A stretch of DNA of 64,000 nucleotides from Actinomycetota bacterium. Its GTDB lineage: Bacteria > Actinomycetota > Actinomycetes > S36-B12. The notes beneath the pieces are model-generated. The model was not told the origin of the DNA. It saw only the letters and a program-made list of their open reading frames with translations, and made no database searches. The position numbers and the translations under genes are program-made. The DNA lies in contig JAUSDJ010000017.1 of NCBI GenBank assembly GCA_030650795.1, positions 260,077-324,076 of the forward strand. The letters run 5' to 3'. Shown here in pieces: positions 9,501 through 24,296 of the stretch. The stretch's first letter is position 1, and every line of letters begins with the position of its first letter.

Positions 9501-9860
9501 GATGACCGAGAAGTAGGGGCCCGCGGCGATACGGGCCTGACGATTTCGCTCCGTTCGTACGCGAACTCGCTCACCGGTTTGCCGGTCAATTCCATACATC
9601 GCGTCACGCACAATGCGGCCGTCGGCTAGCGTCAGCTGCTCTCCTGGGCGATAAGCCAACCTCGCGGCCGTGACCCCCTCGCCGAGGAACCAGACCTGCC
9701 TCGAGTCGACGGATTCCGACCCCAATCGGTAGTCGACTTGGGCCTCCCGGGCAGCCACGGAGGCAGACTTATCCGGTGTGATTCCGCCCAATCTGTAACC
9801 CACCTGCGCACCCAAATCGGCGCCGTGAGTGAGCATTTGGCAATGACCGCTGCGAGCCAT
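6591..9860 (-). CDS. MOBF-type conjugative relaxase fused to a RecD-like helicase (TraA/TrwC family)
   Basis: 1089-aa ORF. It has the relaxase histidine motif YSRELDPHLHGHVMIPN and a helicase Walker A VIGAAGSGKTT, followed by DEASM and a C-terminal UvrD/RecD-like region (HKLQGQTVD). Confidence 0.85.
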   Translation of the reverse strand: MARSGHCQMLTHGADLGAQVGYRLGGITPDKSASVAAREAQVDYRLGSESVDSRQVWFLGEGVTAARLAYRPGEQLTLADGRIVRDAMYGIDRQTGERVRVRTERNRQARIAAGPYFSVIKEACELAEIHPEDLWPKRNLSSQLRSVARAAGRSNGTVVIRTAEALLRSNEHAWAMYWARDRQGLEFEPPPVQFDREEVMRLLGAHHRALEESCQQQVFDGKPLDYSLSDKKLGEWIWGRVLEQSEETSVVGNAGYELTLTCPKSFSVAAFVADPSTREQWLATVRDAARQAADGLMARVAHGRAGHEGDGQKSLPIRGLGYSATVSIESYSRELDPHLHGHVMIPNRVVCVDGVERTMATGGADLVNHSWWLQAQFERCLRQLSTQRGLVTGWEFDLADRQWEVIGADTDLMAFYSQAQARVHGETLESLHEESVGVTRARLQVLDSRAKRKVTSAKGEQTLTWGQVRARMIDRADEFGIDLGSAFGAVPLDFAQQPRAWDVDFWARTVEEIVCENKGAEITARIEAAVRAFAPHDWSEEQVRAMLSEVVAREFTTGEVTARGRVGVRKHASNRIADAERRACEAFAAASEQNKHALDPEAALLGLEQWRELSGWTQQSLSFTPGQLALFTQMTTGRDSVSTVIGAAGSGKTTAIDAARTVLAARGQRVYGVCVAAIAAQALRDTAGVQAGTVTWLTMRINFARDPQDPIRIKADELARSGRRRERALAQRICTRFSLPQMDHLVIDEASMIPATDMATVLEWAADNDITVTLIGDHRQLQPVGPSGLFRQFHESRPGAELVENLRQRTDVGRECAAFLRDGDPEQALLKLADAGQLVVVASQTEAERVLISAWAERAEGCPEPLERLHATGLESDRNDQVEILNTLARVEARNRGWITGGDVIFRDRGLTRSIAIGDQIVITKNITRGQNRSLSNGTRAVVASVDDKGIEIAYRDGDKVCTSHLTALQVMRNARHGYAMTTHKLQGQTVDSLVIDVGPDRDMSSAYVAFTRHRNDVLAVVNIADIADGEQAAALMAAGPDARRDAVIAMTAERMSQRGFIEQPTAHAALRRPLPLSPRPDQGLGMAG

Positions 9861-10209: not shown

Positions 10210-10497
10210 GTGAACAATGACTTCCTGACCGCATCGACCATCGCCGCCAAGGACCTCACGGCGGCGCAGGCCAAGCGAGCCGGGCTCGAGGCCAAGGCCA
10301 GCGATCGTCTCGCCAGGGCTCAAGACCGGTACCCCCTCGATCTCACCGACGCTCGCCGCGTCGAAGCTGAGGCGTGGAAGCAGCTCATGGAGGTACCGGG
10401 CATGACGGCCGCTACCGCGGCGCATATCGGAGGGACCACGGCTATCAAGGTCAGCCGCTGGATTTCCTCCCGTGTCGAGGACTCGGCATGCAGCTGA
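10210..10497 (+). CDS. Hypothetical 95-aa protein (possible small HTH or relaxosome accessory protein)
   Basis: The GTG start has AAGGAG 8 nt upstream (10196-10201). The gene is divergent from the relaxase, and the segment AAHIGGTTAIKVSRWIS looks HTH-like. Confidence 0.5.
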   Translation: MNNDFLTASTIAAKDLTAAQAKRAGLEAKASDRLARAQDRYPLDLTDARRVEAEAWKQLMEVPGMTAATAAHIGGTTAIKVSRWISSRVEDSACS

Positions 10498-11207
10498 CGC
10501 CGCGCACTCTGGGCATGGCACTTGGTGCCTGCCTGGCAGGCGGCCTGGTCGTTGGCGCCGCGACGGTCATCAGCCCCAGCATCGGAGTCATCAACCCCAC
10601 CCCGGAAGCGGCTGCTTTATCGCCCGCCTATTCCGAGGCCGAACTCGGCGACATCCAGGTCACCTACCCAACACCCTCGATGCGGGTCGCCACACCGATG
10701 TCCGCCGCAACCCCGCCAGATGCGCAGCCCAACGCGCCCTTGTCAACAACCGCGCCGACTAGCGCCTCCACGCCAACACTCCCTGCACCGAAGGCAACAC
10801 CGACGGCGTCTCAAGTCACGAAGGACCCCAGCAGTCGGGATAGGACCAAGCCGACAGCAACGAAAACGAGCACCCCGACAAGACCCACCCTGCCGCCGAC
10901 ACAGGCGCCCAAGCCGACAGCAATTGCACCAGCAGTCCAGGGCTCAGCGACGCACCCGCTCCATGACTGGAAGCTGCCACATCTTGGTATCGGCGTGACT
11001 GACATCAGCGCACCGACACTGTCCTCAGGTGCACGTGTGCACGTCACGGTCATGTGTTCTCCCAGTTCAGCATGCAACGCCAGTGGCACTTCCCTGGCGA
11101 TCTCTCCGGAGGCGACGCACGTCTCAGTCACGTGGAGCGCGCCCGCTGACTCCAAGTGGCCCGCCTGGTCCCTCACGCGCGCCTACATGGGATCCGCTGC
11201 CGGGTGA
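10488..11207 (+). CDS. Membrane-anchored or secreted Pro/Thr-rich protein
   Basis: The ATG overlaps the stop of the upstream ORF. An N-terminal hydrophobic segment (LGMALGACLAGGLVVGAATVI) is followed by a long P/T/A/S/K-rich linker and a C-terminal domain. Confidence 0.55.
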   Translation: MQLTPRTLGMALGACLAGGLVVGAATVISPSIGVINPTPEAAALSPAYSEAELGDIQVTYPTPSMRVATPMSAATPPDAQPNAPLSTTAPTSASTPTLPAPKATPTASQVTKDPSSRDRTKPTATKTSTPTRPTLPPTQAPKPTAIAPAVQGSATHPLHDWKLPHLGIGVTDISAPTLSSGARVHVTVMCSPSSACNASGTSLAISPEATHVSVTWSAPADSKWPAWSLTRAYMGSAAG

Positions 11208-11256
11208 GTGTCGGACCGGACACCTACTCTGCCTGGATCGTCACGACGGAGGTTCC

Positions 11257-11475
11257 ATGATTGCGCTGATCGTCCTGGTCGCCCTGTCGCTCGTCATCGG
11301 CGCGGTGGTGGGGGCCACTGCACTGCTTGTGGCCGTCGGCAAGTTAATTTTCCGAGCGATGCGAAGCATCCCAGTCGAGACTCAGCCAGGGAGTGTGTCA
11401 GGGGTTCACCCGCCCCCTGTGGAGGTCGAGCAGGAATTCAATCGGATCATTTCGCGCGAATGGCCCAGCCCCTAG
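11257..11475 (+). CDS. Small single-pass membrane protein (72 aa)
   Basis: The ATG has GGAGG 4 nt upstream. The product begins MIALIVLVALSLVIGAVVGATALLVAVG, a transmembrane helix. Confidence 0.5.
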   Translation: MIALIVLVALSLVIGAVVGATALLVAVGKLIFRAMRSIPVETQPGSVSGVHPPPVEVEQEFNRIISREWPSP

Positions 11476-11481
11476 CACCAA

Positions 11482-13632
11482 CTACTGCGACGCTGACTCG
11501 CTGTCACGGATGTAAGTCACGCCGAAGCCAACGACTTGTCGGAACTCCTGACGGCGTGCGGCCACGTCGAACTGGCCCCCCGAGCCCTTCTGGAAGATGT
11601 CAAGGCCGCGACCGAGCAGCACCTTCCAGCCACTGTCGGTGCGGATCGACCGGTCGTGAACTGTGTCGTCCCACACGACGTTGAACTTGATACCGACCGA
11701 CGCGGCGCCATCCTGGATGTCCTTGAGCATGAGGAGGTGCTGTTGCTGGAACTCGCCCTTGTCTTCCTTGGTTACGAGCCTCACGGCAATCTCGTCAGCC
11801 GGGTCCTTGCCCGAGGCCAGAAGCGCGAGCAGGTCTACGAGGTTCCGACCCTGGTGCGGCAGGCGAACGTACGGGTCGACGATGGTGATTTCGGTCGCGC
11901 CGCGCAGGTACGGCAACAGCAAGGTCTCGTACGAGACGCCGCGCTGGTTCTCCTGGAACTCGCGGTGGCCCTCGAACAACGGCTCGGTCTTCGGTCCAAC
12001 CTCTGCAGGAGCAGCGCCGGTCGAGAGCACCGCGTCGGTGGTGCTAATAGACGACTCCTCGGCTTGGTGCTGGTGGTAGTACGCCGGATACTCGTCTTCC
12101 TCGAGGGTCGAAACTGCGTGCCAATCGCCTCCCTTGTCGTAGTAGCCAAACTTCACGTTGACCATGGTGCCGTCGATACGAAGGATCTGGTCCTTGACTC
12201 TCTTGCGCCCTTCGATGGCGAACCGCAGGATCTCCTCGATTTCCTTTTTAGCCGCCTCACCCTGCGGATACAAGATCTTCATCAGACCTGAGAACGTCTT
12301 GTGGATGCCGTCACGGTCGCGGGTGGAGATGTCTGAGCCCAAAGTGAAGTACTGCTGGTACCGGTCGGAGTAGTCGGCGTCGCGCATCGACTTGAGCACC
12401 TCTGCGATGTAATCGACGACGAAACCGTAGCCGTTAGAGAACATCTCGCCGCGGATCGTGTCGACCTCCCACCCGGGGATGTAGCAGTGCAGCCGATCGA
12501 GGAATGCCGAGTCGTGGTAGCTCTCAGGGAGTTCGTCGAATAGGTCCGAGTGTTTCAACATGAAGGGAACGTTGTGGGAAGTGTTGCCTACAAACACCAT
12601 TGATGCTTCGGCTCCCAAGGTCTCTACTCCGCGGGAGAAGGTCTTGTTCGCCATGTAGTTCTTCATGATGTCGACAAGGGCTTTATCGGTGCGCTTCTTC
12701 TTACCAGCGAACTCGTCGAACGCAACGACGTCCCAGTAGCCGACCAAGCCGATACGGCCGTTCGAGTTGTTGACGAAGAGCTTCGGAACCGTGACTTCGC
12801 CACCGGAGATCAGCATTCCGTGGGGCGAGAATTCCGAGAAGATGTGTGACTTGCCGGTGCCCTTAGGGCCGAGTTCGATGAGGTTGTAGTTTCGCTCGAC
12901 GAACGGAATCAGGCGGACGAGCTGGATGAGTTTGGCCCGGCGACCGAAAAGTTCAGGGTTGAAGCCGATGGACTGGATGAGAAGGTCGATCCATTCATCC
13001 GTCGTGAATTGGCGACGGGCAGTTACGTATCCGTCGAAGTCGAAGTTGGAGAGTTGAATCGGCTTAATGGATCCCAGGATCCAAGGCACGAAGTGAGGAC
13101 TGTCGCTGTGTGAGTACTCGATGTCGCAGATGCACCACACGCCACCTACCAACAACTTCGGATGGCTCTTGATGATCGCTGGCGAGACCAGCACCTGCTT
13201 GATGCCGAGGTTGGCAAACTCGGCTTCGTAGGTGTCCTCCTTGTCGTTGAGTTGCACCTGCACCTTGTCAATGATGCGGTAGCGGCCCTTTTCGCGAATG
13301 TTCGACTTCACCAGTTCGGCCCGGTTCCGGTGCACGTAGTGGTCGGCAAGGATCTTGCGTACGCTCTCGATTCCCGACTGGATCGTTGCCTCGTCGTCCG
13401 AGGCTGCGTACTGGCCGAGTAGGTACTCCAACACAAACGAGGGCACGATCGCGTTGCCCTTGACAGCCTTGACGAGGTCCTTGCGAACTACTGCGCCTCC
13501 AAAGAATTCGTTGATCTTCTGGTCGAGGGCTGACTTCACTGGTGGATTCGACGCAACGGGAGCATCGATAACGCCCTCTGGATAGTCGTCGTCGAATACA
13601 TCAGATTCGGTGCGTTCGGTCATCTCAGTCAC
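11482..13632 (-). CDS. brxL: BREX BrxL (AAA+/Lon-related ATPase) with atypical C-terminal MITD1-type PLD-like domain
   Basis: 716-aa ORF and the last gene of the locus. Walker A is LGPKGTGKSH and Walker B is VVAFDEF. The C-terminal ~140 aa reads IVDPYVRLPHQGRNL...VHDRSIRTDSGWKVLLGRGLDIF. Confidence 0.8.
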   Translation of the reverse strand: MTEMTERTESDVFDDDYPEGVIDAPVASNPPVKSALDQKINEFFGGAVVRKDLVKAVKGNAIVPSFVLEYLLGQYAASDDEATIQSGIESVRKILADHYVHRNRAELVKSNIREKGRYRIIDKVQVQLNDKEDTYEAEFANLGIKQVLVSPAIIKSHPKLLVGGVWCICDIEYSHSDSPHFVPWILGSIKPIQLSNFDFDGYVTARRQFTTDEWIDLLIQSIGFNPELFGRRAKLIQLVRLIPFVERNYNLIELGPKGTGKSHIFSEFSPHGMLISGGEVTVPKLFVNNSNGRIGLVGYWDVVAFDEFAGKKKRTDKALVDIMKNYMANKTFSRGVETLGAEASMVFVGNTSHNVPFMLKHSDLFDELPESYHDSAFLDRLHCYIPGWEVDTIRGEMFSNGYGFVVDYIAEVLKSMRDADYSDRYQQYFTLGSDISTRDRDGIHKTFSGLMKILYPQGEAAKKEIEEILRFAIEGRKRVKDQILRIDGTMVNVKFGYYDKGGDWHAVSTLEEDEYPAYYHQHQAEESSISTTDAVLSTGAAPAEVGPKTEPLFEGHREFQENQRGVSYETLLLPYLRGATEITIVDPYVRLPHQGRNLVDLLALLASGKDPADEIAVRLVTKEDKGEFQQQHLLMLKDIQDGAASVGIKFNVVWDDTVHDRSIRTDSGWKVLLGRGLDIFQKGSGGQFDVAARRQEFRQVVGFGVTYIRDSESASQ

Positions 13633-13635
13633 CCC

Positions 13636-16128
13636 TTAGAAGTCAAAGTCAGTCGTGAATGAGCGCTTGATGGTGTAGTTGGCCCTTGAGAAGGCCTTCC
13701 ATTGGTTCGTATTCGGGATGGGTTCTTCCAGCCGTAGCTCGACAGCGCGGTTGTTGAAGTCGTCGGCATCTTGTGTGAGGTACAGCGTGGCGGACTGGTA
13801 CCGCTCACGCTGGTCGTCCGCGTCACTGTCGAACACCAGCACCGGCTGATCGGAGATCAGCGTCTCACCCACGTAGAGACAAAGACGAACCTGACGCAAC
13901 TGAATCTTGTCGGTCACGGCCTCCCGCTGAAGCAGCTTCACGGTGAGTTGCCCGGTCGTGATCTTGTCGGTCTCGGGCATGAGATCGACCTCGACGGGGC
14001 GGATGTCGCTCTTGCGCTTCTTGTTGACCGTGACCACAGGGACGACGATTTCCTGAAGGGAAGCGCCACCGTGCACGTATCGCGTGCCAGCGCCTGGCAG
14101 CGGAATCCGATGAATTGACTTCGGAATCTGAATGTCAATGTCCCCAGACAAGCCGACTTGCGCAGAGGTGAATGTCATGAAGGACGGTGAGGGCTTCAAC
14201 GCCCTGCCCAACACGTAACGGCGATTGGTCTTAGTAACGGCATCCCCCTGCGGAGTCTCAGAGACGTAGTAGGACTGCTCCAGCGGGATGTCTTGATAAA
14301 GGAAGCCGTGGTCGGCAGTCAGCAGAATGTTCGTCGCGTTGGCGTTCGTCCATTTCTTCACGAGGAGCAACAGCTCCCGCAAAGTCTCCTCAGCGGCCTC
14401 GAAGACGGTGCGCTCCGTCGGTGCCTTGTCGCCAGCCGCGTCGATGCGGTCGTGGTAAACGTAGAAGATCTGGTGCTGCTTATAGAGATCGCGCAGTTCG
14501 TCTCCCGGCATTGCTAGCACAGCGGCGGCGGAAAGCGCGTGGCCCTTCACCGACTGCAGAATCTTGTCGCGGTTCGCCGTGCCGTCAGTGCGCTTCCCAT
14601 CAGCCAAGACAGGCAGCGCCTCGGGGTTCAACTCCAACGCGGACTGAGGTAGTAACGCGGCCATCCCCAGTTGGGTGTAACTCGGCAACACTCCTAACAC
14701 CGCCGAGAGGGATGCGTCGAAACGGTCCTCGTTGCGGATCAGGGAAGCTAGTTCTTCCGCAACCTCGTAGCGCATACCGTCAGAGATGATGACGACCGCC
14801 TTGGTTCGTCCATCCTTGACTACCGGAGCGACATGGTTGTCGAAGAACTTGGCCTGGGGCGCGAGTGCCGCCGATTTCCATTCAGTGACCGGTTCCAGGG
14901 TCTGTTGCCAGAGCCCACCGAAATCGTAGAGGAACTTATTCGCGTACTGCTTGTCCACCTCGGCCTTGAGGGCTTCAAGCGGCTGCTGGAATTCGGCAGA
15001 TTGATACGCGTATGTGAACCAGCGGTATTGCTGATCAATACGGAACCAGTCCGACTGGTACTTCTGCAATGCGATATCGAGAGCTCCAGTCGAACTAGGC
15101 AATGCGGTAATAGCTGCTAGAAGTTCCGAGGCGCTCTGAATAGCCGCGTATAACTTGGCGTACTTATGCGTCCAAAGGCTTTCCTGACGTTGCCGCACCA
15201 CGTCGGCCACGTCGCGAGGTGTGACCGCCTGGGTTGCCACGGCGGCGGCGAGGTCGACGATGACCTTGCGGTCGATCTCCTCAAAGATCGTGATCGAGAC
15301 CAACTCGTAATAGTCGGTGTGCTCGATCTTCGACTTGATATCGAGTGCGTCGGCAGCCCGAGAGGCGAGTTTCGCCATCATGTCTTGGCTGCGAACGTCG
15401 AAGCGCAGGCTGTTGAAGTCGATGCGAATATTGCGGTAGCGCCCTGGAGTGTCAGACTCGAACTTCTCGATGGCTCGACTGAACATCCAGAGTAAGAAGT
15501 CGTCGATCGTTGGATTGGCGCTGGGGTACTTGTAGATGTTGGTGAGGCCGTCCCAGAGGAATTGGTCGAGTCCGTAGGTGACGAGATCATCGAACTTGGT
15601 GTGCTTGGTTTCAGCGTTCTCAGCGAGGAGTTCCCTAGTGATATCGGTCAATGTGTGCCCGGAGGACTTCACAAGCACCTGGCACATCTTTGCGCGCAAT
15701 TTCATAGGGTCGTCCCCAGACGACAACAACTTCTCGAGTGCCTGCTTACGCACGGCGGCTGCGAAGAATTTCTGGTGCTGCTCAATGACCGGGCCGAGCG
15801 CAAGGTCGTTGAGACCGAGTTCCTGTTGGAGCATGGACGTCTTATCGGCCGTGAATACGCCATAGGCCAACTCAAGGTCCAGCAGCCAGTTGTCGGTGCC
15901 GCCCGGCACCTCACCCGCACGGTACACAAGGTGTCTGGTGACGTGGTCGGCGAGCAGCTCGCTCTTCACTCCGAACTCGTTGCCGTGCACCCGGATGATG
16001 TTGACGTTGCCGAAGTCAAGCGCGTCGACCTCAGCGTCATACTCTCCTGACGGATCGTGCCAGAACACGACTCGTTTCCCAGCGAGTCGCTTGTCCAGGG
16101 CGTCTTTGACGGAAGTCAGGTCACTCAT
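13636..16128 (-). CDS. pglZ: BREX PglZ alkaline-phosphatase-superfamily protein
   Basis: About 830 aa from ATG 16128, which overlaps the pglX stop by 8 nt. PglZ-type motifs VVIISDGMRYEV and LLTADHGFLY are present. Confidence 0.85.
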   Translation of the reverse strand: MSDLTSVKDALDKRLAGKRVVFWHDPSGEYDAEVDALDFGNVNIIRVHGNEFGVKSELLADHVTRHLVYRAGEVPGGTDNWLLDLELAYGVFTADKTSMLQQELGLNDLALGPVIEQHQKFFAAAVRKQALEKLLSSGDDPMKLRAKMCQVLVKSSGHTLTDITRELLAENAETKHTKFDDLVTYGLDQFLWDGLTNIYKYPSANPTIDDFLLWMFSRAIEKFESDTPGRYRNIRIDFNSLRFDVRSQDMMAKLASRAADALDIKSKIEHTDYYELVSITIFEEIDRKVIVDLAAAVATQAVTPRDVADVVRQRQESLWTHKYAKLYAAIQSASELLAAITALPSSTGALDIALQKYQSDWFRIDQQYRWFTYAYQSAEFQQPLEALKAEVDKQYANKFLYDFGGLWQQTLEPVTEWKSAALAPQAKFFDNHVAPVVKDGRTKAVVIISDGMRYEVAEELASLIRNEDRFDASLSAVLGVLPSYTQLGMAALLPQSALELNPEALPVLADGKRTDGTANRDKILQSVKGHALSAAAVLAMPGDELRDLYKQHQIFYVYHDRIDAAGDKAPTERTVFEAAEETLRELLLLVKKWTNANATNILLTADHGFLYQDIPLEQSYYVSETPQGDAVTKTNRRYVLGRALKPSPSFMTFTSAQVGLSGDIDIQIPKSIHRIPLPGAGTRYVHGGASLQEIVVPVVTVNKKRKSDIRPVEVDLMPETDKITTGQLTVKLLQREAVTDKIQLRQVRLCLYVGETLISDQPVLVFDSDADDQRERYQSATLYLTQDADDFNNRAVELRLEEPIPNTNQWKAFSRANYTIKRSFTTDFDF

Positions 16129-19100
16129 CCGAGGACTCCAGACCGGGGATCCTCTTGAGTGCATCCCCGAACTTCGGATAGTTGGTCTTCACACCGTCGT
16201 CAAGGTCAACAGCGATGTTCTCGGATGCCTTCGGGTAGAGCACGTCGTGCTCGTACGCGTTGAGCTCGACAATTATCTTGCGCAGGCGATCCGCCTCCTT
16301 CGCGCTCCCCGCCCTTTCGGCCTGCTGCAGGCTCGACTCGAGCTTGGTCACGTACTCTCGCAAGTACGTCAGCACCGTCGAGACGGTCGACGGTGTGTAG
16401 CGGTGCATGTAGATGAGTGCATTGAAGGAACCCTTAGGGCTGGAGAACAGCCAATAGATCGGCCGCTTCTTGTATCGCTGGACGTGGTCCTTATAGAACG
16501 ACTTCACGAAATAGTCCCGAAGATCCCGCACCCCAAGGGACTCGGTCACAAAAAGCAAGTTCTCCTCGAAATGCTCCTCACCAAAAGACACCCGAAGGAA
16601 CTCTCGGAACCGCCCAACAATGTCATCCTCGAACCAATCACCATCCACAATCGGAATCACATTGTCCGCATCTGGCATGAAACACGGGGCTGGAATCCTC
16701 GCAAGATAGTCCTGCAACTTCGCCCCCTGATCCGCAAGAATCAAACCCGGAGAATCAGGGGAATACCGCCCGAACATGCAACCCACCGCAAAAGAGACCA
16801 AATCCTCTGCCAATTCGCTGACTTGCTGTTCGAACGTAGCGTCAGAATCGCCGTCCCAAGGCAAATCTTGCTCAGCTGGCATCTCTCCGAGGAGCGCGAA
16901 TACGTCTTCAACCAAACGATTGATCGCGCCTTGGGCAGAATCTAAGCGCATCCGTCGTTGTACGCGTGCGGAATGTTCTGATTTGAAAGACCGCTCTACT
17001 TTTCCAGTCTCATAAGCAGACCCGTCTGCCATCCAGGACGGCCGCCTGAAGTCCCATGACGTCTCATACTCATCCCAAGCGTCTTTCGAAAGCTGAATAC
17101 ATCTGGAAGACAATTCGACAAGTGCGTCTGGCAGATCTCGGTAGGGAAGACTTAGGACATGCCCCAACTTGAAGTGCAAAGTTGGCGCGAGCATTTCTAA
17201 GTAACGGTCTACGACAGAACTGTTTAATAGTGCGAGTACCTTCTTCAGAGTGGTCACATCATCGACAAAGCCCATCGGAGCAGTGGCATCAAACATCAAC
17301 CCACCCGGAACCATCCGAGCAGCAAACCTTCCACTTGAGACACTCGACCAAGTCAGGCCGGGACGCAATCCGAATACCCCATTGTAATTATGCGATCTGA
17401 CTCGACCAGTCTTGCTATCCAAATAGTTCTTCGGTCGTCGGCCATCTTGCTCCCAGTCAACGACGTATTCAAGATTTCCATACCACCTTCGGAAAGTTCC
17501 ACCTTTCAAGTAGGGGAACCACCTTTTGCCCGACTGAATTGCTTGATTTTCGTCCGTTAGCCCGAATCCAATTCCCGCTGTGGAGACTTCAAACCAACGT
17601 CGCAGGAATAGGCCATTGTTGCCCGTGGTCATACCTTCTCGCGTTGCCATCGCATCACTCAGGGTCAGAAACGACTCGAACACTTGGTAGTCCCTCTCAG
17701 TTGCCCAATAGGCAATTGGGCAACCTGGCAACTTCAGCAACCTTCGTGGGCGGCTTCGAAACGCCCACCCGCAATCTGGGTTCCGAATAGCTTCTAGAGC
17801 CTTCGGGGCTTGGCTAGTTGCGCCCTTGAAGTCCGCGAGCCGAATGAAGGTTGCCTGGCGGTCCGTTTCATCCTTACACATCGTGAATGCACAGATCGGA
17901 ACCGTGGCACCCTCGAACCCGGAGTACTCCAACTGCACGAGCGATGTCAATGACAACTCGCTTAGTACGAGTTTGCGCAAGGGCTCATACATAGCGATGA
18001 ACATCCACACGAATGGAGTCATCAGGCCACAATGCCCCTGCGTCAAAAGGAACGTCACGCCTCGCGATACGTATGCTGCAAAGAGATCCGATTTATACTC
18101 GGCAAAGTTAACCTGCAACCAACCCGCGAGCAGTGCATTTAGGTTCTTGCTGCTCATGTACGGAGGGTTTGCAACGACGATGTGGTAGCGCTGGGACAGG
18201 TATTCGCTTTGAGTCAAGACCGTGTTGGCGTTGTCGACGAGTCGCTGGTTCAGTAAATGGTCTGAATGGATCGATGCTTGAACATGCGCCCGAAGTTCAG
18301 GAATGAGGACTTCGTTTGGCTGAATCAGGGATCCGAAAGTGTCGGCGTGTTCGAAGGCCTGCCAGAAGTCTTCTTCAACGAACCGGTCTCCCCCACGCGT
18401 GACAAGCTCATCCAATTCGTCGGTGGTGAAATGGACGTTCTGCAGGACGCAAATGTTGGGTTGGGTGCCGGTGTTGAAGAACGTGCGTTGCTTGGCGCGG
18501 GCTTTCATCGCTAGCGCGAACGCGGCCAAAGAACCGGCCCGCTGGTCGATCTCAACCCCGAACAAGTTGTTGCCCAAGATCAAGCTGGGGATGTCGGCGG
18601 GTGCGTAACCGGCCTCCTGATAGATCGCGTACAGCAGATCAAAGGCGTACGTGAGCATGTGACCAGACCCGCAAGCCGGGTCGATGATCTTCAACTCCTC
18701 TGGCCTGGTGATGCGGAGAAAATCGGTCTCTTCATCAACCGGGGCGATGTAGTAGTCCATCTGATCCACCAGCGCAGACTCAGGATGGTTCAACATCCAA
18801 AGACGACCAAGGGAGTTCTCAACCAGGTACCGGACAATCCAATGGGGAGTGAACAACTGCGTTGCCGCCGGGATCTCCGCAGCACCAGCCTTCTTGCCCT
18901 GTTTAAACCCCGCGAAAACCTCATCTTTACGCTCGGCAACATAGAACTGGTACAGCCAACCAATGACCTCAACGTCGCGGCACACCTCGGGCGTCAACAC
19001 CGCCACCGCCCGGCTGCGCACCGAATCATCAGCCAACAAATTCCCTGGAATCAGCAGCTCAGTGAAGTCGCCTTCGCGCTCGAACATGAACGGCATTGCC

Positions 19101-19582
19101 CGGTTCCAGTAGCGGCAGTAATCCGCGAGCAGGAGCGCGTACGCCTCCGCTTGAGCATCAACGCCCTGCCGAGGCCGACGAGTGTCGTTGAGTAGGCCCC
19201 TGATTGCAGTGACGTCTGCCGCCTTGGTGACAACAATCTTGTCAACTTGATCGCGCTTGGCAGCAGCAAGAACCTCGGGCTGACCGATCTGGTCTATCGC
19301 GGGCGACACCACACCGATGCCGGTGTAACCGTTGGCGTCCATGAATCTCAGCGCGATGATGCGGTTGAACCAGACGTATGCGACCTTGTCGGCCACATGC
19401 TTCCTGCCGACGTCTCCCCCTCCAGCGGCCGCGACTTCCCTCTCCAGAGAAGCGACGGTCCCGGCTTGCTCCACGCGCTCTGGAGAACCTTGCGCGACCA
19501 CCGCGACGATCCGCGCCGTGACTTCTCGGATCAATTCAGTCCGAGCCGACGTAGCAAAGGACTTAAGCGGTGCAGTCTCCAT
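16121..19582 (-). CDS. pglX: BREX PglX N6-adenine DNA methyltransferase
   Basis: 1153-aa ORF with the SAM-binding motif IIDPACGSGHML and the catalytic motif VVANPPYM. Confidence 0.9.
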   Translation of the reverse strand: METAPLKSFATSARTELIREVTARIVAVVAQGSPERVEQAGTVASLEREVAAAGGGDVGRKHVADKVAYVWFNRIIALRFMDANGYTGIGVVSPAIDQIGQPEVLAAAKRDQVDKIVVTKAADVTAIRGLLNDTRRPRQGVDAQAEAYALLLADYCRYWNRAMPFMFEREGDFTELLIPGNLLADDSVRSRAVAVLTPEVCRDVEVIGWLYQFYVAERKDEVFAGFKQGKKAGAAEIPAATQLFTPHWIVRYLVENSLGRLWMLNHPESALVDQMDYYIAPVDEETDFLRITRPEELKIIDPACGSGHMLTYAFDLLYAIYQEAGYAPADIPSLILGNNLFGVEIDQRAGSLAAFALAMKARAKQRTFFNTGTQPNICVLQNVHFTTDELDELVTRGGDRFVEEDFWQAFEHADTFGSLIQPNEVLIPELRAHVQASIHSDHLLNQRLVDNANTVLTQSEYLSQRYHIVVANPPYMSSKNLNALLAGWLQVNFAEYKSDLFAAYVSRGVTFLLTQGHCGLMTPFVWMFIAMYEPLRKLVLSELSLTSLVQLEYSGFEGATVPICAFTMCKDETDRQATFIRLADFKGATSQAPKALEAIRNPDCGWAFRSRPRRLLKLPGCPIAYWATERDYQVFESFLTLSDAMATREGMTTGNNGLFLRRWFEVSTAGIGFGLTDENQAIQSGKRWFPYLKGGTFRRWYGNLEYVVDWEQDGRRPKNYLDSKTGRVRSHNYNGVFGLRPGLTWSSVSSGRFAARMVPGGLMFDATAPMGFVDDVTTLKKVLALLNSSVVDRYLEMLAPTLHFKLGHVLSLPYRDLPDALVELSSRCIQLSKDAWDEYETSWDFRRPSWMADGSAYETGKVERSFKSEHSARVQRRMRLDSAQGAINRLVEDVFALLGEMPAEQDLPWDGDSDATFEQQVSELAEDLVSFAVGCMFGRYSPDSPGLILADQGAKLQDYLARIPAPCFMPDADNVIPIVDGDWFEDDIVGRFREFLRVSFGEEHFEENLLFVTESLGVRDLRDYFVKSFYKDHVQRYKKRPIYWLFSSPKGSFNALIYMHRYTPSTVSTVLTYLREYVTKLESSLQQAERAGSAKEADRLRKIIVELNAYEHDVLYPKASENIAVDLDDGVKTNYPKFGDALKRIPGLESSDE

Positions 19583-22500
19583 CAGTTCGAGATTCGCTTT
19601 CCGCCATTGATCGTCTGCACCAGGGCAGTACGGAGCGACGCGAGGTACGCATCCACGTCAGATTCGGTTTCAATAATGGTCGGCCCACCTACTGCCTTGA
19701 CGGTGGTAACTGCGACCGTGGGCTTCTGGGGTGCGTCCTTTGAAGAGGTGGATTGGGTGAGCTGGTCGATGATGCCGGGGTATACGTTCGACTCGAAGTT
19801 CGTGCCGGTTTGCTGGATGACCGCGATGAGACTCTCGTTGTCGAGCCCAGCGAGCAAGTGGTTCACGCTGTCGACCGCCGCTTTCTGCGCGGCCTCCGTT
19901 GCCGCCTTGTAGAAGGACTGGGACTGGAGGCCGGTGAACTTGACGGCGACTGTTGTCCTAACCGTGGCTCGGGACTCACTGACCTTGCTGTCGAGGAGTC
20001 CCTTGAGAGTGTCGGATGCCGCCTTGAGCTGGTTCATCTTGTTGCCGCGGAAGGCGTTGGGGTCTGCAAGCAGAGCGTTGACGTCTTCGGCAGTGCCGTC
20101 CGGGACGTAGCTCAGGTTGCCGCTGTTGGTGTTTAGCAGACTTTGCGCATCGTCGAAAATCTTGCCCTGCTGACCCTTGAGGAAGGCTCTGATCGGGTCG
20201 ACCAAGTTCTCCTTGGCATCCACAAGCTGATCGGCACTGTCGAACTGACCGAGGTACCAGTCGGCGGGCTTTCCTATGACGTGGTCGAGCAGTGTGACAA
20301 CACCGGCGAGTTGGCTGACGAACGGATACCGACTGGTGCTCACCAGCGCATTGAGTTCTTCGCGTTTGGCTGCGAGCTTGTCCTTCCCGAATCGAGCCAA
20401 CTCCGTAGGGTCGCTCGGCACGCCGCCCTCGTCGAAGAAGTCCGTGCAGAACTTCTTGAACGCTGCCATCTTGGTCTCGTCATAGACCTTCTGGGGGGCA
20501 ACGATGGTGTGCTGCTGCTTGGCAGTGTTGCGAATCAGGACTGCGGCCTCAGTGCGCACCACAGGGTTTGCATCAACGCTGAGGGTGACCTTGCCGTTGC
20601 CTACGAGCCAACCCAGCACAACCTCGATAGAGCCGAGGTCCCAGCCATAGGGCTTTGTCTCGAAGCGCCCGACGATCTTCTTGACCGTCACCTGCTCACC
20701 GAGATTGGTCTGGGAGACGATCCACGATTCCACTTCGGTGCCAGGTGAGGCGAGCACGGTCAGGTTCTCCGACCCGAACAGGCCTTGGTCGTTTTGAACT
20801 GCACCTGCGACCTGCTGCTCGGTGAAAACCTTGCCACCGAGCAGGCTGAGGTTCGTATACGTGCGGCTGACGAGTTCTTGGAAGCCGTCGGACACCCGCG
20901 TTTGGGCATCCTGCGAACTGGACTTAACTTCGGCAGCGTTGATGAAGAGCTGGGCCTTACCAACGGCTTGGCGAAGGCGCTCGATGAGTTCCTTCTCGCG
21001 GTCGGCATTGAGCAGCTGCTTTGACTGCAGGATCGCCTGCATTGTCGGAGTTGCGCCCGAGTTGGTGCGTTGCTTGGTGTACTTCTCGGTCTTCAGTAGC
21101 AGACGAAGGTCTGACAGCAGCCGCTTGTCGCGACCGAGGAACACGCGTAGCTCATCCTTGCCCGCGCCCTGCATCTTGATCTCGTCGTCTGTGTAGCTCG
21201 TCTCCGGCGTAATGAAATGGACGGTGAGCTCACGCTGGTTGCCCTGAACGATGTCGTCGAGCTTGTACCCGAACGCGAAGTCCTGCTGATTCTTGGTGTA
21301 TTTGAGCTTGTTCGTCTTGAAGATGTCGGACGAGAGGTACTTGAAGAGCTTGCTAGAGAGTTCGGAGGAGTCGATATCGACCGCCTTAATCTCCTTCTCG
21401 ATTTCCTGCTCCTCGTTGGTGAGGTAGTCGTAGACGTTTCCATTTCGCTGCGCGTAGGACTGTGTCTCCAGCAGGTTGAGCGCCTCTTGCACCTGGTCGC
21501 CCAGGGCCTTGAGGTCGAGACCGAAGCGGTCATATACCAGCACGGTTAGGTTGCGAGGCGTGGCCTTGAAGTTGTCGACATACTTCACGAGAAACAAGGC
21601 CTTGAGCAGGCGGTTCGCGAGAATCGTGACGTCGGATGTGGGGTCAGGCAGGTGCCTTTCGGCCTGGAGAATGGCACTCTGCGCTGCCGCCTTGAGCGCA
21701 GCGCTAATGCCGGAGAACATCTGATCGAACGTGGCTAAATAGCCCACCTGTTCGCCGCCGATGCGCTTGGCAACCTCTTGGACCACACCGAGCATTGAGC
21801 GCTCACCTACCGAACTGTTTCGCCCCTCGAACATGTTGTGATCGGACAATCCCTCAATAGATGCCTGGAACATCGGAATCTGATAAGTCACGAAGGGGTA
21901 AGTCCCAATGAAGTGGCTTTCATCAACGTAGTTGCGATACGTCTTCGCGCCGTCAACGAAGTCGAATATCGTCTTGAAGTTCGCGGCCTCCTCGGCGTGG
22001 ATGGCCTTGAGTTCGACGGAGCCTGCATCGTTCTTCTCTAAGAGTCGTTTACTAATGACTTCTTCGACATCGGCGCTGGTGAGCTTCACGCGAATCCTGA
22101 AGCGGGCCTGAATCTTCGAGAAGTCGTTTTCCTGCTGACGGGTCTGGTCACCGATCACCTTCTCCATATCCTCCTGCGAGGTAACGAAGACCCACGACTG
22201 CCCCTTGCACTTCGTGTTGAGAGACTCGGCAATGGTCTGAAGATTGAGCATGAGTTTCACGTCGTCAGCTACGAACTGGCCAACCTCGTCAACGAAAAAA
22301 TTGAGGCGGTAGCCCGCCTCCTGCGTGTCAATCCACGCTTTGACCGAGTCGGCGAAGTCTTCGATCGATACGGCATACGAGGCTTGGTACTGGCCGATGA
22401 TGCCGGGGTTTGCTTCGCCGTTGACCTCGGCAAACGCCTTGTCGACGTTGTGCGCTTCGAGAGCTGTTTGCTCGCGGCCTTGTGTCCAGTCGATGCCCGC

Positions 22501-23055
22501 GTGCTTCCGGAATGCGGTCTTGAACTCGTCGTACTGATCGCGCTTGTCAAGATCTTCCTCGAAGCGCGCTACCGCGCCGTCGTTTCCAAAGTAGCCGCGA
22601 CTCTCGTCGAAGACCTTGACGAAGACCTTGAGCAAGGCGTCCGTCTGGTCCTTGGCGATCAGGTTCGCCTTCTGATCGATGTTGAACAGCAGGCTCTTGG
22701 CGGGGATCGCCGCGGCCTTCTTCAGCGCGGCGATGAGCATCGCGTCGTCGGTCTTACCCATGAAGCTGTCACTCACTTGAGACCGCGGAAATTCCTGACC
22801 TTCCACGTCGCCGAGCAGGTGGGCGAGCATCTTCAAGAGGTGCGACTTGCCGGAACCGAAGAAGCCCGAGATCCAGACGCCGTTTGCGTTCGTGTAGTTG
22901 GAGTACTCCTCCAGCAGCGGGGCCACGCCCTTGGCCGCGTCGTTTGTGAGGACGTACTCCTCGACCTCGATCCCCAGGTGATCAAAGTCGTCGGCCTTGA
23001 CCACGCCCTCGATGGAGCGGGTGACGTCTTTGCGGAAGATCTCGTTGAGTCTCAT
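19582..23055 (-). CDS. brxC: BREX BrxC/PglY P-loop ATPase
   Basis: 1157-aa ORF with Walker A GFFGSGKSHLLKML near the N-terminus, positioned between brxB and pglX. Confidence 0.85.
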   Translation of the reverse strand: MRLNEIFRKDVTRSIEGVVKADDFDHLGIEVEEYVLTNDAAKGVAPLLEEYSNYTNANGVWISGFFGSGKSHLLKMLAHLLGDVEGQEFPRSQVSDSFMGKTDDAMLIAALKKAAAIPAKSLLFNIDQKANLIAKDQTDALLKVFVKVFDESRGYFGNDGAVARFEEDLDKRDQYDEFKTAFRKHAGIDWTQGREQTALEAHNVDKAFAEVNGEANPGIIGQYQASYAVSIEDFADSVKAWIDTQEAGYRLNFFVDEVGQFVADDVKLMLNLQTIAESLNTKCKGQSWVFVTSQEDMEKVIGDQTRQQENDFSKIQARFRIRVKLTSADVEEVISKRLLEKNDAGSVELKAIHAEEAANFKTIFDFVDGAKTYRNYVDESHFIGTYPFVTYQIPMFQASIEGLSDHNMFEGRNSSVGERSMLGVVQEVAKRIGGEQVGYLATFDQMFSGISAALKAAAQSAILQAERHLPDPTSDVTILANRLLKALFLVKYVDNFKATPRNLTVLVYDRFGLDLKALGDQVQEALNLLETQSYAQRNGNVYDYLTNEEQEIEKEIKAVDIDSSELSSKLFKYLSSDIFKTNKLKYTKNQQDFAFGYKLDDIVQGNQRELTVHFITPETSYTDDEIKMQGAGKDELRVFLGRDKRLLSDLRLLLKTEKYTKQRTNSGATPTMQAILQSKQLLNADREKELIERLRQAVGKAQLFINAAEVKSSSQDAQTRVSDGFQELVSRTYTNLSLLGGKVFTEQQVAGAVQNDQGLFGSENLTVLASPGTEVESWIVSQTNLGEQVTVKKIVGRFETKPYGWDLGSIEVVLGWLVGNGKVTLSVDANPVVRTEAAVLIRNTAKQQHTIVAPQKVYDETKMAAFKKFCTDFFDEGGVPSDPTELARFGKDKLAAKREELNALVSTSRYPFVSQLAGVVTLLDHVIGKPADWYLGQFDSADQLVDAKENLVDPIRAFLKGQQGKIFDDAQSLLNTNSGNLSYVPDGTAEDVNALLADPNAFRGNKMNQLKAASDTLKGLLDSKVSESRATVRTTVAVKFTGLQSQSFYKAATEAAQKAAVDSVNHLLAGLDNESLIAVIQQTGTNFESNVYPGIIDQLTQSTSSKDAPQKPTVAVTTVKAVGGPTIIETESDVDAYLASLRTALVQTINGGKRISN

Positions 23056-23058
23056 ATG

Positions 23059-23673
23059 TCAAGCTTCCTGATCGAGGATGCGCTTCGCGCGGTAAAAGGA
23101 GTCGTCCTTGAGTTGGCCGAAGAGGACTAGCGAAGAGCCCTGCGTGGTGGACACGTCGTACCTGCCGGGGAAGAACATCAGCATTGGCGCGTCGGAGACG
23201 ACGGTTTGCAGGTTATTGAGCACCGTGTGTGAGCGTATGAACGGAAAGACTTCCCCGATGCCGGTGAGGAAGAGGATGTCGAAGGTCTCGCCGTCTATGC
23301 GGGACTTGATGGCTGGGGCGAGATGAATCTGGGGGTCGAGCATGTTCTGGAGCATCTTGAGGAAGTCACGCTTGTCCATCGTTGGCTCGGCTGCGATTAC
23401 GCGATCCCAGACGTTGCGCTCTTTGAGAAGTTCGACGCTGAGGTCGTAAAGATTGATCTCGAAGACCTTGATGCCTACTTCGGTTTCGAGCTTGGTCTTG
23501 ATGCGCCTCTTGGCCTGAGCAACGTCGAGCGCCCAAGTCTGGTCGTAGTCATAGATGAAGTGGGCGACCTCGTTGCCCAGCCCCTCCATCTTGAGGAAGC
23601 GCTCGCTGCTGAGCACCTTGAACAGGTGCTCCTCCTGCTGGGTCAGCGTGGTCTTGGCTCGCACACTCATCAC
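23059..23673 (-). CDS. brxB: BREX BrxB (DUF1788)
   Basis: 204-aa ORF with a 4-nt overlap with brxA and DUF1788-like segments (FIYDYDQ, LFLTGIGEVFPFIRSH). Confidence 0.8.
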   Translation of the reverse strand: MMSVRAKTTLTQQEEHLFKVLSSERFLKMEGLGNEVAHFIYDYDQTWALDVAQAKRRIKTKLETEVGIKVFEINLYDLSVELLKERNVWDRVIAAEPTMDKRDFLKMLQNMLDPQIHLAPAIKSRIDGETFDILFLTGIGEVFPFIRSHTVLNNLQTVVSDAPMLMFFPGRYDVSTTQGSSLVLFGQLKDDSFYRAKRILDQEA

Positions 23674-24296
23674 GCCACCCTCGACGGGAAGAACCGGATG
23701 TCGCTAGGGGTGCGCTGATTGAGGCACTCCGCGACGCGGGTTGAGAGCAGGACGGGCTCGATATCGCCTTGCTTAGTCAGCAGACCGGCTTCGACCATCA
23801 TCTTGAAGAGCACCTGGCGGAGCTTCTTGTAAGAGAGATCAGTGACCTCGTCGAGTTCACCGTGCCACATGGCCTTGGAGCGATAGAACGAGTCGTAGTC
23901 CTCGTATGCGAGTGTGCCGACCAGTGTGAGGAACCGCTCGTGCAACACTTCCTCCGCGAACTCAGCGATCAGGAGGTAACTGCGGCAGGCGGCCGCCCAC
24001 ATCAAGTGGCCCCGCTCCGTGGACGTACCTTCCGCGACGATCTGCAGCTCTGCGTCGGTCAGGACTTGGAGTCGAGGGATGAGTGCGCCCAGTTTTCTGG
24101 TGGTTGACGCCGAGACCCGAGCTTGAAGAAGGTTTTCCATTTTGACTCGGGCGCGGGTCTTCGCCCAGTCACGATCCTCGAGATATATGGGGGTGACTAC
24201 GGCCGCTTCACCAGCGAGCAGTGCACCGCTAGTAAACGAAAGCGCATACGCCGCCGAATTCGTCATTACCGCCCTCACGCTTGTCTCCCCCGTCAC
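23670..24296 (-). CDS. brxA: BREX BrxA (DUF1819)
   Basis: 198-208 aa and the first gene of the locus. The call rests on size and position plus DUF1819-like sequence. An alternative ATG start lies at 24266. Confidence 0.75.
   Translation of the reverse strand: MTGETSVRAVMTNSAAYALSFTSGALLAGEAAVVTPIYLEDRDWAKTRARVKMENLLQARVSASTTRKLGALIPRLQVLTDAELQIVAEGTSTERGHLMWAAACRSYLLIAEFAEEVLHERFLTLVGTLAYEDYDSFYRSKAMWHGELDEVTDLSYKKLRQVLFKMMVEAGLLTKQGDIEPVLLSTRVAECLNQRTPSDIRFFPSRVA

What the first reader, a model, noticed from the sequence alone, without database searches (positions are those of the whole stretch)
11485..11910. BrxL C-terminus looks like a MITD1-type phospholipase-D-like (MIT_C) domain rather than a Lon-protease-like domain
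BrxL residues 1-510 match the usual N-domain plus AAA+ module (LGPKGTGKSH, VVAFDEF, FAIEGRKRVKDQ). After a ~60-aa low-complexity linker, the last ~140 aa read EITIVDPYVRLPHQGRNLVDLL...VRLVT...VHDRSIRTDSGWKVLLGRGLDIF...F..........VTYI. Motif for motif, this parallels the C-terminal PLD-like domain of human MITD1 as I recall it (IEDPYIR..HQ..NF..., IHDREIRFNNGW.IKIGRGLDYF). Characterised BrxL proteins are described as having a Lon-protease-like C-terminal domain, so this may be a domain-swapped BrxL variant. In MITD1 the PLD-like domain is non-catalytic and mediates dimerisation and membrane binding, which would suggest a different assembly or localisation mode.
Basis: partly seen in the sequence, partly recalled or inferred. 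Interest (0 to 1): 0.6.

Follow-up and report, generated by a model that had tools for sequence, protein, structure and literature searches.

The report
BrxL with MITD1-type PLD tail
The last gene of this BREX anti-phage operon does end in a phospholipase-D-fold domain like that of human MITD1 instead of the usual Lon-like domain, but this variant makes up about a third of BrxL proteins and was described in print in 2025-2026, so only its untested function is still open.

Summary
BrxL (window 11482-13632, minus strand, 716 aa) has BrxL_N, the BrxL AAA+ ATPase, a ~26-residue disordered linker and a full-length Pfam MIT_C domain (E 1.5e-40). No Lon_C is present.

Human MITD1 is the only solved relative of the tail (phmmer E 5e-19; AF2 model pLDDT 95.8, TM 0.87-0.89, rmsd 1.5 A). 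Acinetobacter BrxL aligns only to residues 35-510.

It is not new:
- PADLOC has a full-length model for this architecture.
- Li et al. (NAR 2025, PMC12065111) noted MIT_C on many BrxL proteins.
- A BREX survey (NAR 2026, PMC12839542) counted it in 1030 of 2913 taxa as an "HKD/HRD endoDNase".
- This scan has met it on at least 20 other genomes.

My sample of 401 Actinomycetota genomes gave 18 with a BrxL ATPase match, 16 of them with a readable tail: 6 MIT_C, 7 Lon-like, 3 Schlafen/AlbA_2. None of the three tail types forms one clade on the N+AAA tree, so the tail is a repeatedly swapped slot.

A set of polar residues (D586, Q594, N597, T621, H659-x-R661, D666, R675, D678, R698) is near-invariant across 111 diverged domains. 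This fits a phosphoester-binding or catalytic pocket better than a plain scaffold or membrane anchor. Catalysis is unproven, and the link to HKD enzymes is by fold only.

The parts
11482..13632 (-). brxL, 716 aa from GTG at 13632. Databases aa from the ATG at 13623. Last gene of the type 1 BREX operon.
   Evidence: ORF. NCBIfam TIGR02688 632 bits, above its cutoff of 329. PADLOC PDLC02508 1127 bits over 2-696 of 698. The 100%-identical 713-aa record is P0002.
13114..13509 (-). BrxL_N domain (residues 42-173)
   Evidence: PF20442, E 4.9e-49. Aligns to Acinetobacter BrxL 8EMC.
12166..13080 (-). BrxL AAA+ ATPase (residues 185-489), with Walker A GPKGTGKS and Walker B VVAFDE
   Evidence: PF13337, E 4.1e-130. 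Aligns to 8EMC across 35-510.
11986..12063 (-). Disordered, poorly conserved linker (residues 524-549, AEESSISTTDAVLSTGAAPAEVGPKT)
   Evidence: pLDDT below 50 for 524-549 in the full-length AF2 model. Lowest column conservation among 124 MIT_C-type BrxL, 0.40 against 0.85 or more elsewhere. Translation checked.
11506..11940 (-). MIT_C (MITD1-type PLD-fold) C-terminal domain (residues 565-709)
   Evidence: PF16565, E 1.5e-40, full length. AF2 pLDDT 95.8. Foldseek to MITD1 4A5Z: TM 0.87-0.89, rmsd 1.5 A. Profile search of PDB sequences finds only MITD1, E 1.4e-37.
11599..11658 (-). H659-D-R661-(x)4-D666 ... G674-R675-G676-L677-D678, the HKD-like 'HRD' motif on a beta-hairpin
   Evidence: Translation HDRSIRTDSGWKVLLGRGLD. 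Counts among 111 diverged domains: H659 110, R661 110, D666 87 (N in 21), W669 111, R675 101, G676 111, D678 111.
11842..11877 (-). D586-P-Y...Q594..N597, the first conserved polar block, after strand beta2
   Evidence: Translation DPYVRLPHQGRN. Counts among 111: D586 110, Q594 111, N597 103.
13636..24296 (-). Rest of the type 1 BREX operon: pglZ 13636-16164, pglX 16121-19582, brxC 19582-23055, brxB 23059-23673, brxA 23670-24296
   Evidence: PADLOC and Pfam hits for each gene.

Best explanation
brxL is the last gene of a complete type 1 BREX operon. It encodes the already described MIT_C ('HRD/HKD-like') variant of BrxL.

Shown here:
- The N-domain and MCM-like AAA+ module are about as conserved as in the DNA-encircling Acinetobacter BrxL.
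- A ~26-residue disordered tether follows.
- The protein ends in a MITD1-type PLD-fold domain that stands where the catalytically dead Lon-like domain stands in other BrxL proteins.

Inferred mechanism:
- The AAA+ ring assembles on DNA, as shown for Acinetobacter BrxL.
- The tethered tails pair as homodimers, taking over the ring-pairing role of the Lon-like tail or linking neighbouring subunits.
- Each tail presents a conserved phosphoester-binding pocket (D586, Q594, N597, T621, H659, R661, D666, R675, D678, R698) to the nucleic acid held by the motor.
- The tail most likely acts as a PLD-type phosphodiesterase or nuclease effector.

My odds: identity and architecture about 0.97; a functional ligand or catalytic pocket about 0.8; actual nucleic-acid cleavage about 0.4-0.45. 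The single confidence figure of 0.55 is for the whole statement, including the tethered-effector mechanism.
For: - Domain calls.
- PDB sequence hits: 8EMC covers only 35-510, MITD1 covers 558-684.
- High-confidence model, with MITD1 as top fold match and then PLD2, PLD3 (crystallised with ssDNA), Streptomyces PLD and Zucchini at E about 1e-3.
- Near-invariant polar residues across 111 domains only 32-55% identical to the query.
- In the models the H-x-R motif directly precedes a two-strand hairpin (strands 662-665 and 669-673) with D666 in the turn. From memory, that is where the HKD motif lies in PLD enzymes.
- Predicted homodimer: ipSAE 0.44 against best control 0.01. That mark was reached by 21 of 30 solved homodimers and 0 of 23 monomers.
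- MITD1 dimerises through this domain (PMC3496609).
- Other prokaryotic MIT_C fusions are to S1, GIY-YIG and a weakly matching UvrD-like helicase domain.
- The same slot holds a Schlafen/AlbA_2 domain in 3 of 16 actinobacterial BrxL.
- All three tail types are polyphyletic on the N+AAA tree, AU p <= 1e-11, as expected of an exchangeable effector slot.
- The nuclease hypothesis is published (PMC12065111; PMC12839542).
Against: - No activity has been measured for any MIT_C domain.
- MITD1, the closest relative, is described as a membrane-binding, dimerising module, and its PLD-like domain was dispensable for MITD1's antiviral effect.
- K is replaced by R. The GSxN element is replaced by GRGLD, two residues further from the His than my recalled G-S-x-N spacing.
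- There is only one conserved His per domain.
- The predicted dimer interface (592-607, 635-648, 685-697) does not include H659 or R661. The two-histidine composite site of Nuc/Zucchini-type dimers is therefore not predicted.
- No sequence-level match to PLDc/HKD families (at E <= 1; at E <= 10).
- The domain is mildly acidic (net -3, pI 5.8).
- The DNA co-fold was uninformative.
Confidence: 0.55

Rival explanations
1. The tail is a non-catalytic assembly module. It only dimerises, pairing two BrxL rings tail to tail as the Lon-like tail does, or bridging BrxL to other BREX parts. The conserved pocket binds a phosphate group (DNA backbone or a nucleotide) without cleaving it.
For: - Predicted homodimer.
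- MITD1 dimerises through this domain.
- The Lon-like tail of Acinetobacter BrxL mediates ring-ring dimerisation and is catalytically dead.
- K to R change, a single conserved His, and H-x-R outside the predicted interface.
- PglZ has been reported as the BREX nuclease, so a second nuclease is not required.
Against: - Near-invariance of about ten polar residues over deep divergence, including in non-BrxL architectures, is more than a dimer interface needs. Those residues are not the predicted interface residues.
- A flexible 26-residue tether fits rigid ring stacking poorly.
- The slot alternates with a Schlafen-type domain from a nuclease family.
Confidence: 0.35
2. The tail is a membrane anchor. 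As in MITD1, it binds acidic phospholipids and localises BrxL or BREX at the membrane where phage DNA enters.
For: MITD1's PLD-like domain is described as mediating membrane association (PMC11962514). Fold and motif identity with MITD1 is high.
Against: - The domain is net acidic in 83% of family members.
- Most identifiable fusion partners in prokaryotes are nucleic-acid-related.
- BrxL's known substrate is dsDNA.
- Nothing in the locus suggests a membrane link.
- Bacteria lack the phosphoinositides that, from memory, MITD1 was reported to prefer.
Confidence: 0.08
3. The architecture is an artefact: a mis-assembly, a fused reading frame or a decaying gene.
For: None found.
Against: The frame is uninterrupted. 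More than 120 homologues at 81-86% identity share the same three-domain architecture. The tail is as conserved as the ATPase. The same fusion occurs in one open frame in 5 other sampled genomes.
Confidence: 0.01

Closest known systems
BrxL with C-terminal MIT_C / 'HKD (HRD) endoDNase' (Li et al., NAR 2025, PMC12065111; BREX diversity survey, NAR 2026, PMC12839542; PADLOC PDLC02508; NCBIfam TIGR02688)
   Same: Same three-domain architecture, same HDR/HRD motif, same type 1 BREX operon position. The PADLOC model matches end to end.
   Different: Nothing material. This is one more member, 81-86% identical to many actinobacterial proteins.
Acinetobacter BrxL (PDB 8EMC/8EMH; Shen et al. 2023, PMC10164562; NCBIfam TIGR02653)
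   Same: N-domain and AAA+ module align over residues 35-510 at E 1e-146. Same operon role.
   Different: The tail is a Lon-like domain there and a PLD-fold MIT_C here. TIGR02653 matches only positions 3-469 of 675 and scores below its cutoff. The window protein also has a disordered tether before the tail.
Human MITD1 C-terminal PLD-like domain (PDB 4A5Z, 2YMB)
   Same: 32% identity, TM 0.87-0.89, rmsd 1.5 A. Shares the DPY.R..HQ..N and HDR.IR...GW....GRGLD.F motifs. Both dimerise, predicted here and shown for MITD1.
   Different: MITD1 carries an N-terminal MIT domain that binds ESCRT-III and acts at membranes in cytokinesis. Here the partner is a DNA-binding AAA+ motor in a phage-defence operon. 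At the (x)4 position BrxL has D666 and MITD1 has N.
Single-HKD PLD-superfamily nucleases (Nuc, BfiI, Zucchini/PLD6) and PLD3/PLD4 exonucleases
   Same: Same fold at a distance: Foldseek E 1e-3 to 1e-2, TM 0.38-0.48. The His-x-basic-(x)4-Asp motif sits on the equivalent hairpin.
   Different: No sequence-level match. Arg replaces Lys, and GRGLD replaces GSxN. The predicted dimer does not bring two His motifs together. No activity has been shown.

Membership tests
BrxL (type 1 BREX) | BrxL_N plus BrxL AAA+ ATPase domains above curated cutoffs | tested here: met
   PF20442 166 bits, PF13337 434 bits. TIGR02688 632 bits against a cutoff of 329.
BrxL (type 1 BREX) | Encoded last in a brxA-brxB-brxC-pglX-pglZ-brxL operon | tested here: met
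   All five partners were identified upstream on the same strand, 13636-24296.
Lon-type BrxL (TIGR02653 / Acinetobacter type) | C-terminal Lon_C-like domain | tested here: not met
   No Lon_C hit at E <= 1. TIGR02653 scores 603 against a cutoff of 628.25 and matches only 3-469 of 675. 8EMC aligns only to residues 35-510.
MIT_C (PF16565, MITD1-type PLD-like domain) | Full-length match to the family profile above cutoff | tested here: met
   138.8 bits against a cutoff of 25, positions 1-142 of 142, E 1.5e-40.
MIT_C (PF16565, MITD1-type PLD-like domain) | Same fold as the solved MITD1 domain | tested here: met
   AF2 pLDDT 95.8. Foldseek to 4A5Z: TM 0.87-0.89, rmsd 1.5 A, E 4e-18.
MIT_C (PF16565, MITD1-type PLD-like domain) | Homodimerisation through the domain | tested here: inconclusive
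   Predicted ipSAE 0.44 against control 0.01. The model may be recalling the MITD1 crystal dimer. No experiment.
HKD / PLD superfamily phosphodiesterases | H-x-K-(x)4-D-(x)6-G-S-x-N motif (motif as I recall it) | tested here: inconclusive
   H659, D666 and the hairpin position are present. K is R661. GSxN is replaced by G674-R-G-L-D678, two residues later.
HKD / PLD superfamily phosphodiesterases | Sequence-profile match to PLDc-type families or to solved HKD enzymes | tested here: not met
   Pfam at E <= 1 returns no PLD-type family besides MIT_C. The profile of 111 domains finds only MITD1 in PDB sequences at E <= 10.
HKD / PLD superfamily phosphodiesterases | PLD fold | tested here: met
   Foldseek hits to PLD2, PLD3, Streptomyces PLD and Zucchini at E 9e-4 to 1e-2, probability 0.97 or higher.
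HKD / PLD superfamily phosphodiesterases | Two His motifs brought together (two domains or a dimer) to form one active site | tested here: not met
   One conserved His per domain. The predicted homodimer interface excludes 659-678. This is a prediction only, and other assemblies on a hexameric ring are not excluded.
HKD / PLD superfamily phosphodiesterases | Measured phosphodiester hydrolysis through a phosphohistidine intermediate | not testable with these tools
   I found no experimental report for any MIT_C domain.

The most novel reading that the evidence does not exclude
The C-terminus of BrxL is a hot-swappable effector slot. Lon-like, MITD1-type PLD and Schlafen/AlbA_2 domains have been exchanged repeatedly on nearly identical motor cores. 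On this reading BrxL is the effector-delivery motor of BREX. The MIT_C tail would be a single-His PLD-type phosphodiesterase that does not use the classical two-His mechanism. Human MITD1, which keeps the same invariant residues, would then also be an unrecognised enzyme.
Probability: 0.3. Interest if true: 0.65.

Novelty: already known. Interest (0 to 1): 0.2.

Why it matters
How BREX stops phage DNA is still unsettled, and BrxL is the restriction-specific component. A BrxL tail with an intact PLD-like pocket could be a built-in nuclease, and the same residues are conserved in human MITD1. That idea is already in print, however, and this locus adds only one more ordinary member. The useful additions here are:
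- an independent frequency estimate (6 of 16 BrxL tails);
- evidence that three tail types have been swapped repeatedly on the same motor core;
- the caveat that the predicted dimer does not build a classical two-His HKD site.

Tried and rejected
- A co-fold of two tails with 20 bp of dsDNA gave no verdict: score 0.07 against control 0.06, with no confident contacts. It did not show where the invariant residues sit relative to DNA.
I could not measure whether the invariant residues cluster in space, or superpose them on Nuc or Zucchini active sites.
- The MITD1 structure paper (PMC3491508) is not held. What it says about catalytic residues and dimer geometry could not be checked, and my memory of it is not used as evidence.
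- Sequence-level links to HKD enzymes were sought and not found.
- No terminator-like or promoter-like site was found downstream of brxL.
- The artefact or pseudogene reading is rejected.
- The short 200-300 aa hits in the representative search looked at first like stand-alone MIT_C proteins. About 30 of the 150 carry C-terminal BrxL sequence upstream of the domain, so many are probably gene fragments from short contigs. I did not count them as architectures.

Full report
**The gene.** The ORF at window 11482-13632 (minus strand) encodes 716 aa from a GTG. The 100%-identical database record starts three codons later, at the ATG at 13623, and is 713 aa (P0002).

**Domain calls.**
- Pfam gives BrxL_N (residues 42-173, E 4.9e-49), BrxL_ATPase (185-489, E 4.1e-130) and MIT_C PF16565 (565-709, E 1.5e-40, positions 1-142 of 142). 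There is no Lon_C hit even at E <= 1.
- NCBIfam TIGR02688 ("BREX system Lon protease-like protein BrxL", a 449-position model of the N+AAA part) passes its cutoff.
- The Lon-type model TIGR02653 (675 positions) matches only positions 3-469 and falls below its cutoff.
- PADLOC has a BrxL model (PDLC02508, 698 positions) that matches end to end with 1127 bits. Defence-system databases therefore already model this architecture.

**Solved relatives.** phmmer against PDB sequences aligns Acinetobacter BrxL (8EMC/8EMH) to residues 35-510 only. It aligns human MITD1 (4A5Z, 2YMB) to residues 558-684 at E 5e-19.

**Operon context.** Upstream on the same strand lie pglZ (13636-16164), pglX (16121-19582), brxC (19582-23055), brxB (23059-23673) and brxA (23670-24296). 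Each has strong PADLOC and Pfam hits. This is a complete type 1 BREX operon. A TrwC-type relaxase gene lies next to it (6591-9860), consistent with a mobile island.

**Structure.**
- An AF2 model of residues 556-716, built on an alignment of 111 diverged MIT_C domains, has mean pLDDT 95.8.
- Foldseek against the PDB puts MITD1 first (TM 0.87-0.89, rmsd 1.5 A, 32% identity). It is followed at E about 1e-3 to 1e-2 and TM 0.38-0.48 by PLD2, PLD3 crystallised with ssDNA, Streptomyces PLD and Zucchini. The domain belongs to the PLD fold, and MITD1 is by far its nearest solved relative.
- A profile of the 111 domains finds only MITD1 among PDB sequences, even at E <= 10. The link to HKD enzymes is therefore at fold level only.
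- The full-length model (pLDDT 79.6) has pLDDT below 50 for residues 524-549. Among 124 MIT_C-type BrxL proteins, the 521-540 block is the least conserved internal stretch (0.40 against 0.85 or more elsewhere).

**Is it new? No.**
- Li et al. [quoted passage not shown] - The BREX survey in NAR 2026 (PMC12839542) counts 1030 cases among 2913 type 1 BREX taxa with BrxL where LonP is replaced by an "HKD-endoDNase" with an HRD motif. It proposes direct degradation of invading DNA.
- All of the best 120 homologues of the window protein have the same three Pfam domains at 81-86% identity. Those that carry an organism name are mostly from Actinobacteria.
- Earlier notes of this scan report the same finding on at least 20 other genomes with the same verdict. 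I consulted them after reaching my own conclusion.

**Independent frequency check.** Among 401 sampled Actinomycetota genomes, 18 have a BrxL ATPase match. MIT_C lies in the same open frame in 6 of them, including this genome. Of the others, 7 have Lon_C-like tails, with matches ranging from strong (E 3e-25) to marginal (E 1e-3). Three have a Schlafen AlbA_2 tail (PF04326, E 7.5e-10 to 3.6e-17). One is cut by a contig end and one is a fragment. Six of 16 agrees with the published figure of about 35%.

**Swapping of the tail.**
- I built a maximum-likelihood tree of the N+AAA module from 23 rows: 17 actinobacterial proteins plus 6 diverse MIT_C-type representatives.
- The window protein sits in a well-supported MIT_C clade of 9 rows (99/100).
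- Another MIT_C protein (P0235) nests with 100/100 support beside a Lon-type and a Schlafen-type protein. A third, long-branched MIT_C pair lies apart.
- The AU test rejects a single MIT_C clade (p 1.7e-57).
- After removing the three long-branch rows, it still rejects one clade for MIT_C (p 1.2e-11), Schlafen (p 2.9e-48) and Lon (p 6.9e-56).
- The sample is small and the root is not inferred. The data do show that the tail has been exchanged several times on closely related motor cores.

**What does the tail do?**
- Counts among the 111 diverged domains (32-55% identical to the query): D586 110, Q594 111, N597 103, T621 109, H659 110, R661 110, D666 87 (N in 21), W669 111, R675 101, G676 111, D678 111, Q695 98, R698 109. 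Most of these residues are also present in human MITD1.
- In the models, H659-x-R661 directly precedes a two-strand hairpin (strands 662-665 and 669-673) with D666 in the turn, and GRGLD follows the second strand. That is the position the H-x-K-(x)4-D...G-S-x-N motif occupies in PLD enzymes as I recall them. This is established knowledge of the superfamily, not tested by superposition here.
- Other prokaryotic proteins with closely related MIT_C domains carry three S1 domains, a GIY-YIG nuclease domain with DUF6884 and DUF7669, a weakly matching UvrD-like helicase domain, or PKD domains. Most of these partners are nucleic-acid-related.
- Together with the alternation with a Schlafen-type tail, this favours a ligand-binding or catalytic effector over a plain scaffold.

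**Reasons for caution.**
- No MIT_C domain has a measured activity.
- Lys is replaced by Arg, and GSxN by GRGLD shifted by two residues.
- Only one His per domain is conserved.
- The tail is predicted to homodimerise: ipSAE 0.44 against best control 0.01. That mark was reached by 21 of 30 solved homodimers and 0 of 23 monomers. The interface (592-607, 635-648, 685-697) does not contain the H-x-R motif, so the classical two-His site across a dimer is not predicted. The prediction may also simply recall the MITD1 crystal dimer.
- The domain is mildly acidic (net -3, pI 5.8; 83% of family members have pI below 7). This argues weakly against bulk electrostatic binding of DNA or acidic membranes.
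- A co-fold with DNA was uninformative.
- PglZ has been reported as the type 1 BREX nuclease, so BREX does not strictly need a second one.

**Most likely mechanism (inferred).**
1. The AAA+ ring loads on DNA, as shown for Acinetobacter BrxL.
2. The tethered tails pair up.
3. Their conserved pockets engage phosphodiester groups of the bound nucleic acid, probably cleaving it.

**Verdict.** Interest is low. The remaining open question, whether MIT_C is an enzyme, needs bench work.

Noticed in passing
L011:742-2868:- (G346), L013:561-2675:+ (G252), L015:236-2695:+ (G130): A third BrxL tail type. In 3 of 16 actinobacterial BrxL proteins the C-terminus is a Schlafen AlbA_2 domain (PF04326, E 7.5e-10 to 3.6e-17) instead of Lon-like or MIT_C. 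The only held paper that mentions both BrxL and Schlafen describes Schlafen genes in BREX loci only as separate genes. Earlier notes of this scan have seen the fusion on other genomes.
   Followed up: partly
N+AAA tree of P0001, L001-L016, P0179, P0200, P0205, P0216, P0235, P0262: None of the three tail types (MIT_C, Lon-like, Schlafen) forms one clade on the motor-core tree. AU p is 1.2e-11 or lower even without the long-branch rows. One 100/100 clade holds one protein of each type (L015, L004, P0235). The tail has been exchanged repeatedly.
   Followed up: yes
P0126, P0144, P0151, P0213, P0239 (hits): Other prokaryotic architectures of the MIT_C domain: two MIT_C plus three S1 RNA-binding domains; DUF7669 + MIT_C + DUF6884 + GIY-YIG; DUF7669 + MIT_C; PKD/Ig repeats + MIT_C; a weakly matching UvrD-like helicase + MIT_C. 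Several long proteins have an N-terminal region with no Pfam match.
   Followed up: partly
window 13623-13632: Start codon ambiguity. The longest frame starts at GTG 13632 (716 aa). The identical database protein starts at ATG 13623 (713 aa). The pglZ stop lies 3 nt upstream of the GTG.
   Followed up: no
window 6591-9860 (-) and 10374-11207 (+): A TrwC-type relaxase with an AAA_30 helicase domain lies just downstream of brxL. Between the two genes is a 277-aa Pro/Thr/Ala-rich ORF with no Pfam match, convergent with brxL. The BREX operon is cargo of a mobilisable element.
   Followed up: no
window 11000-11700: No intrinsic-terminator-like hairpin was found after the brxL stop on either strand.
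   Followed up: no
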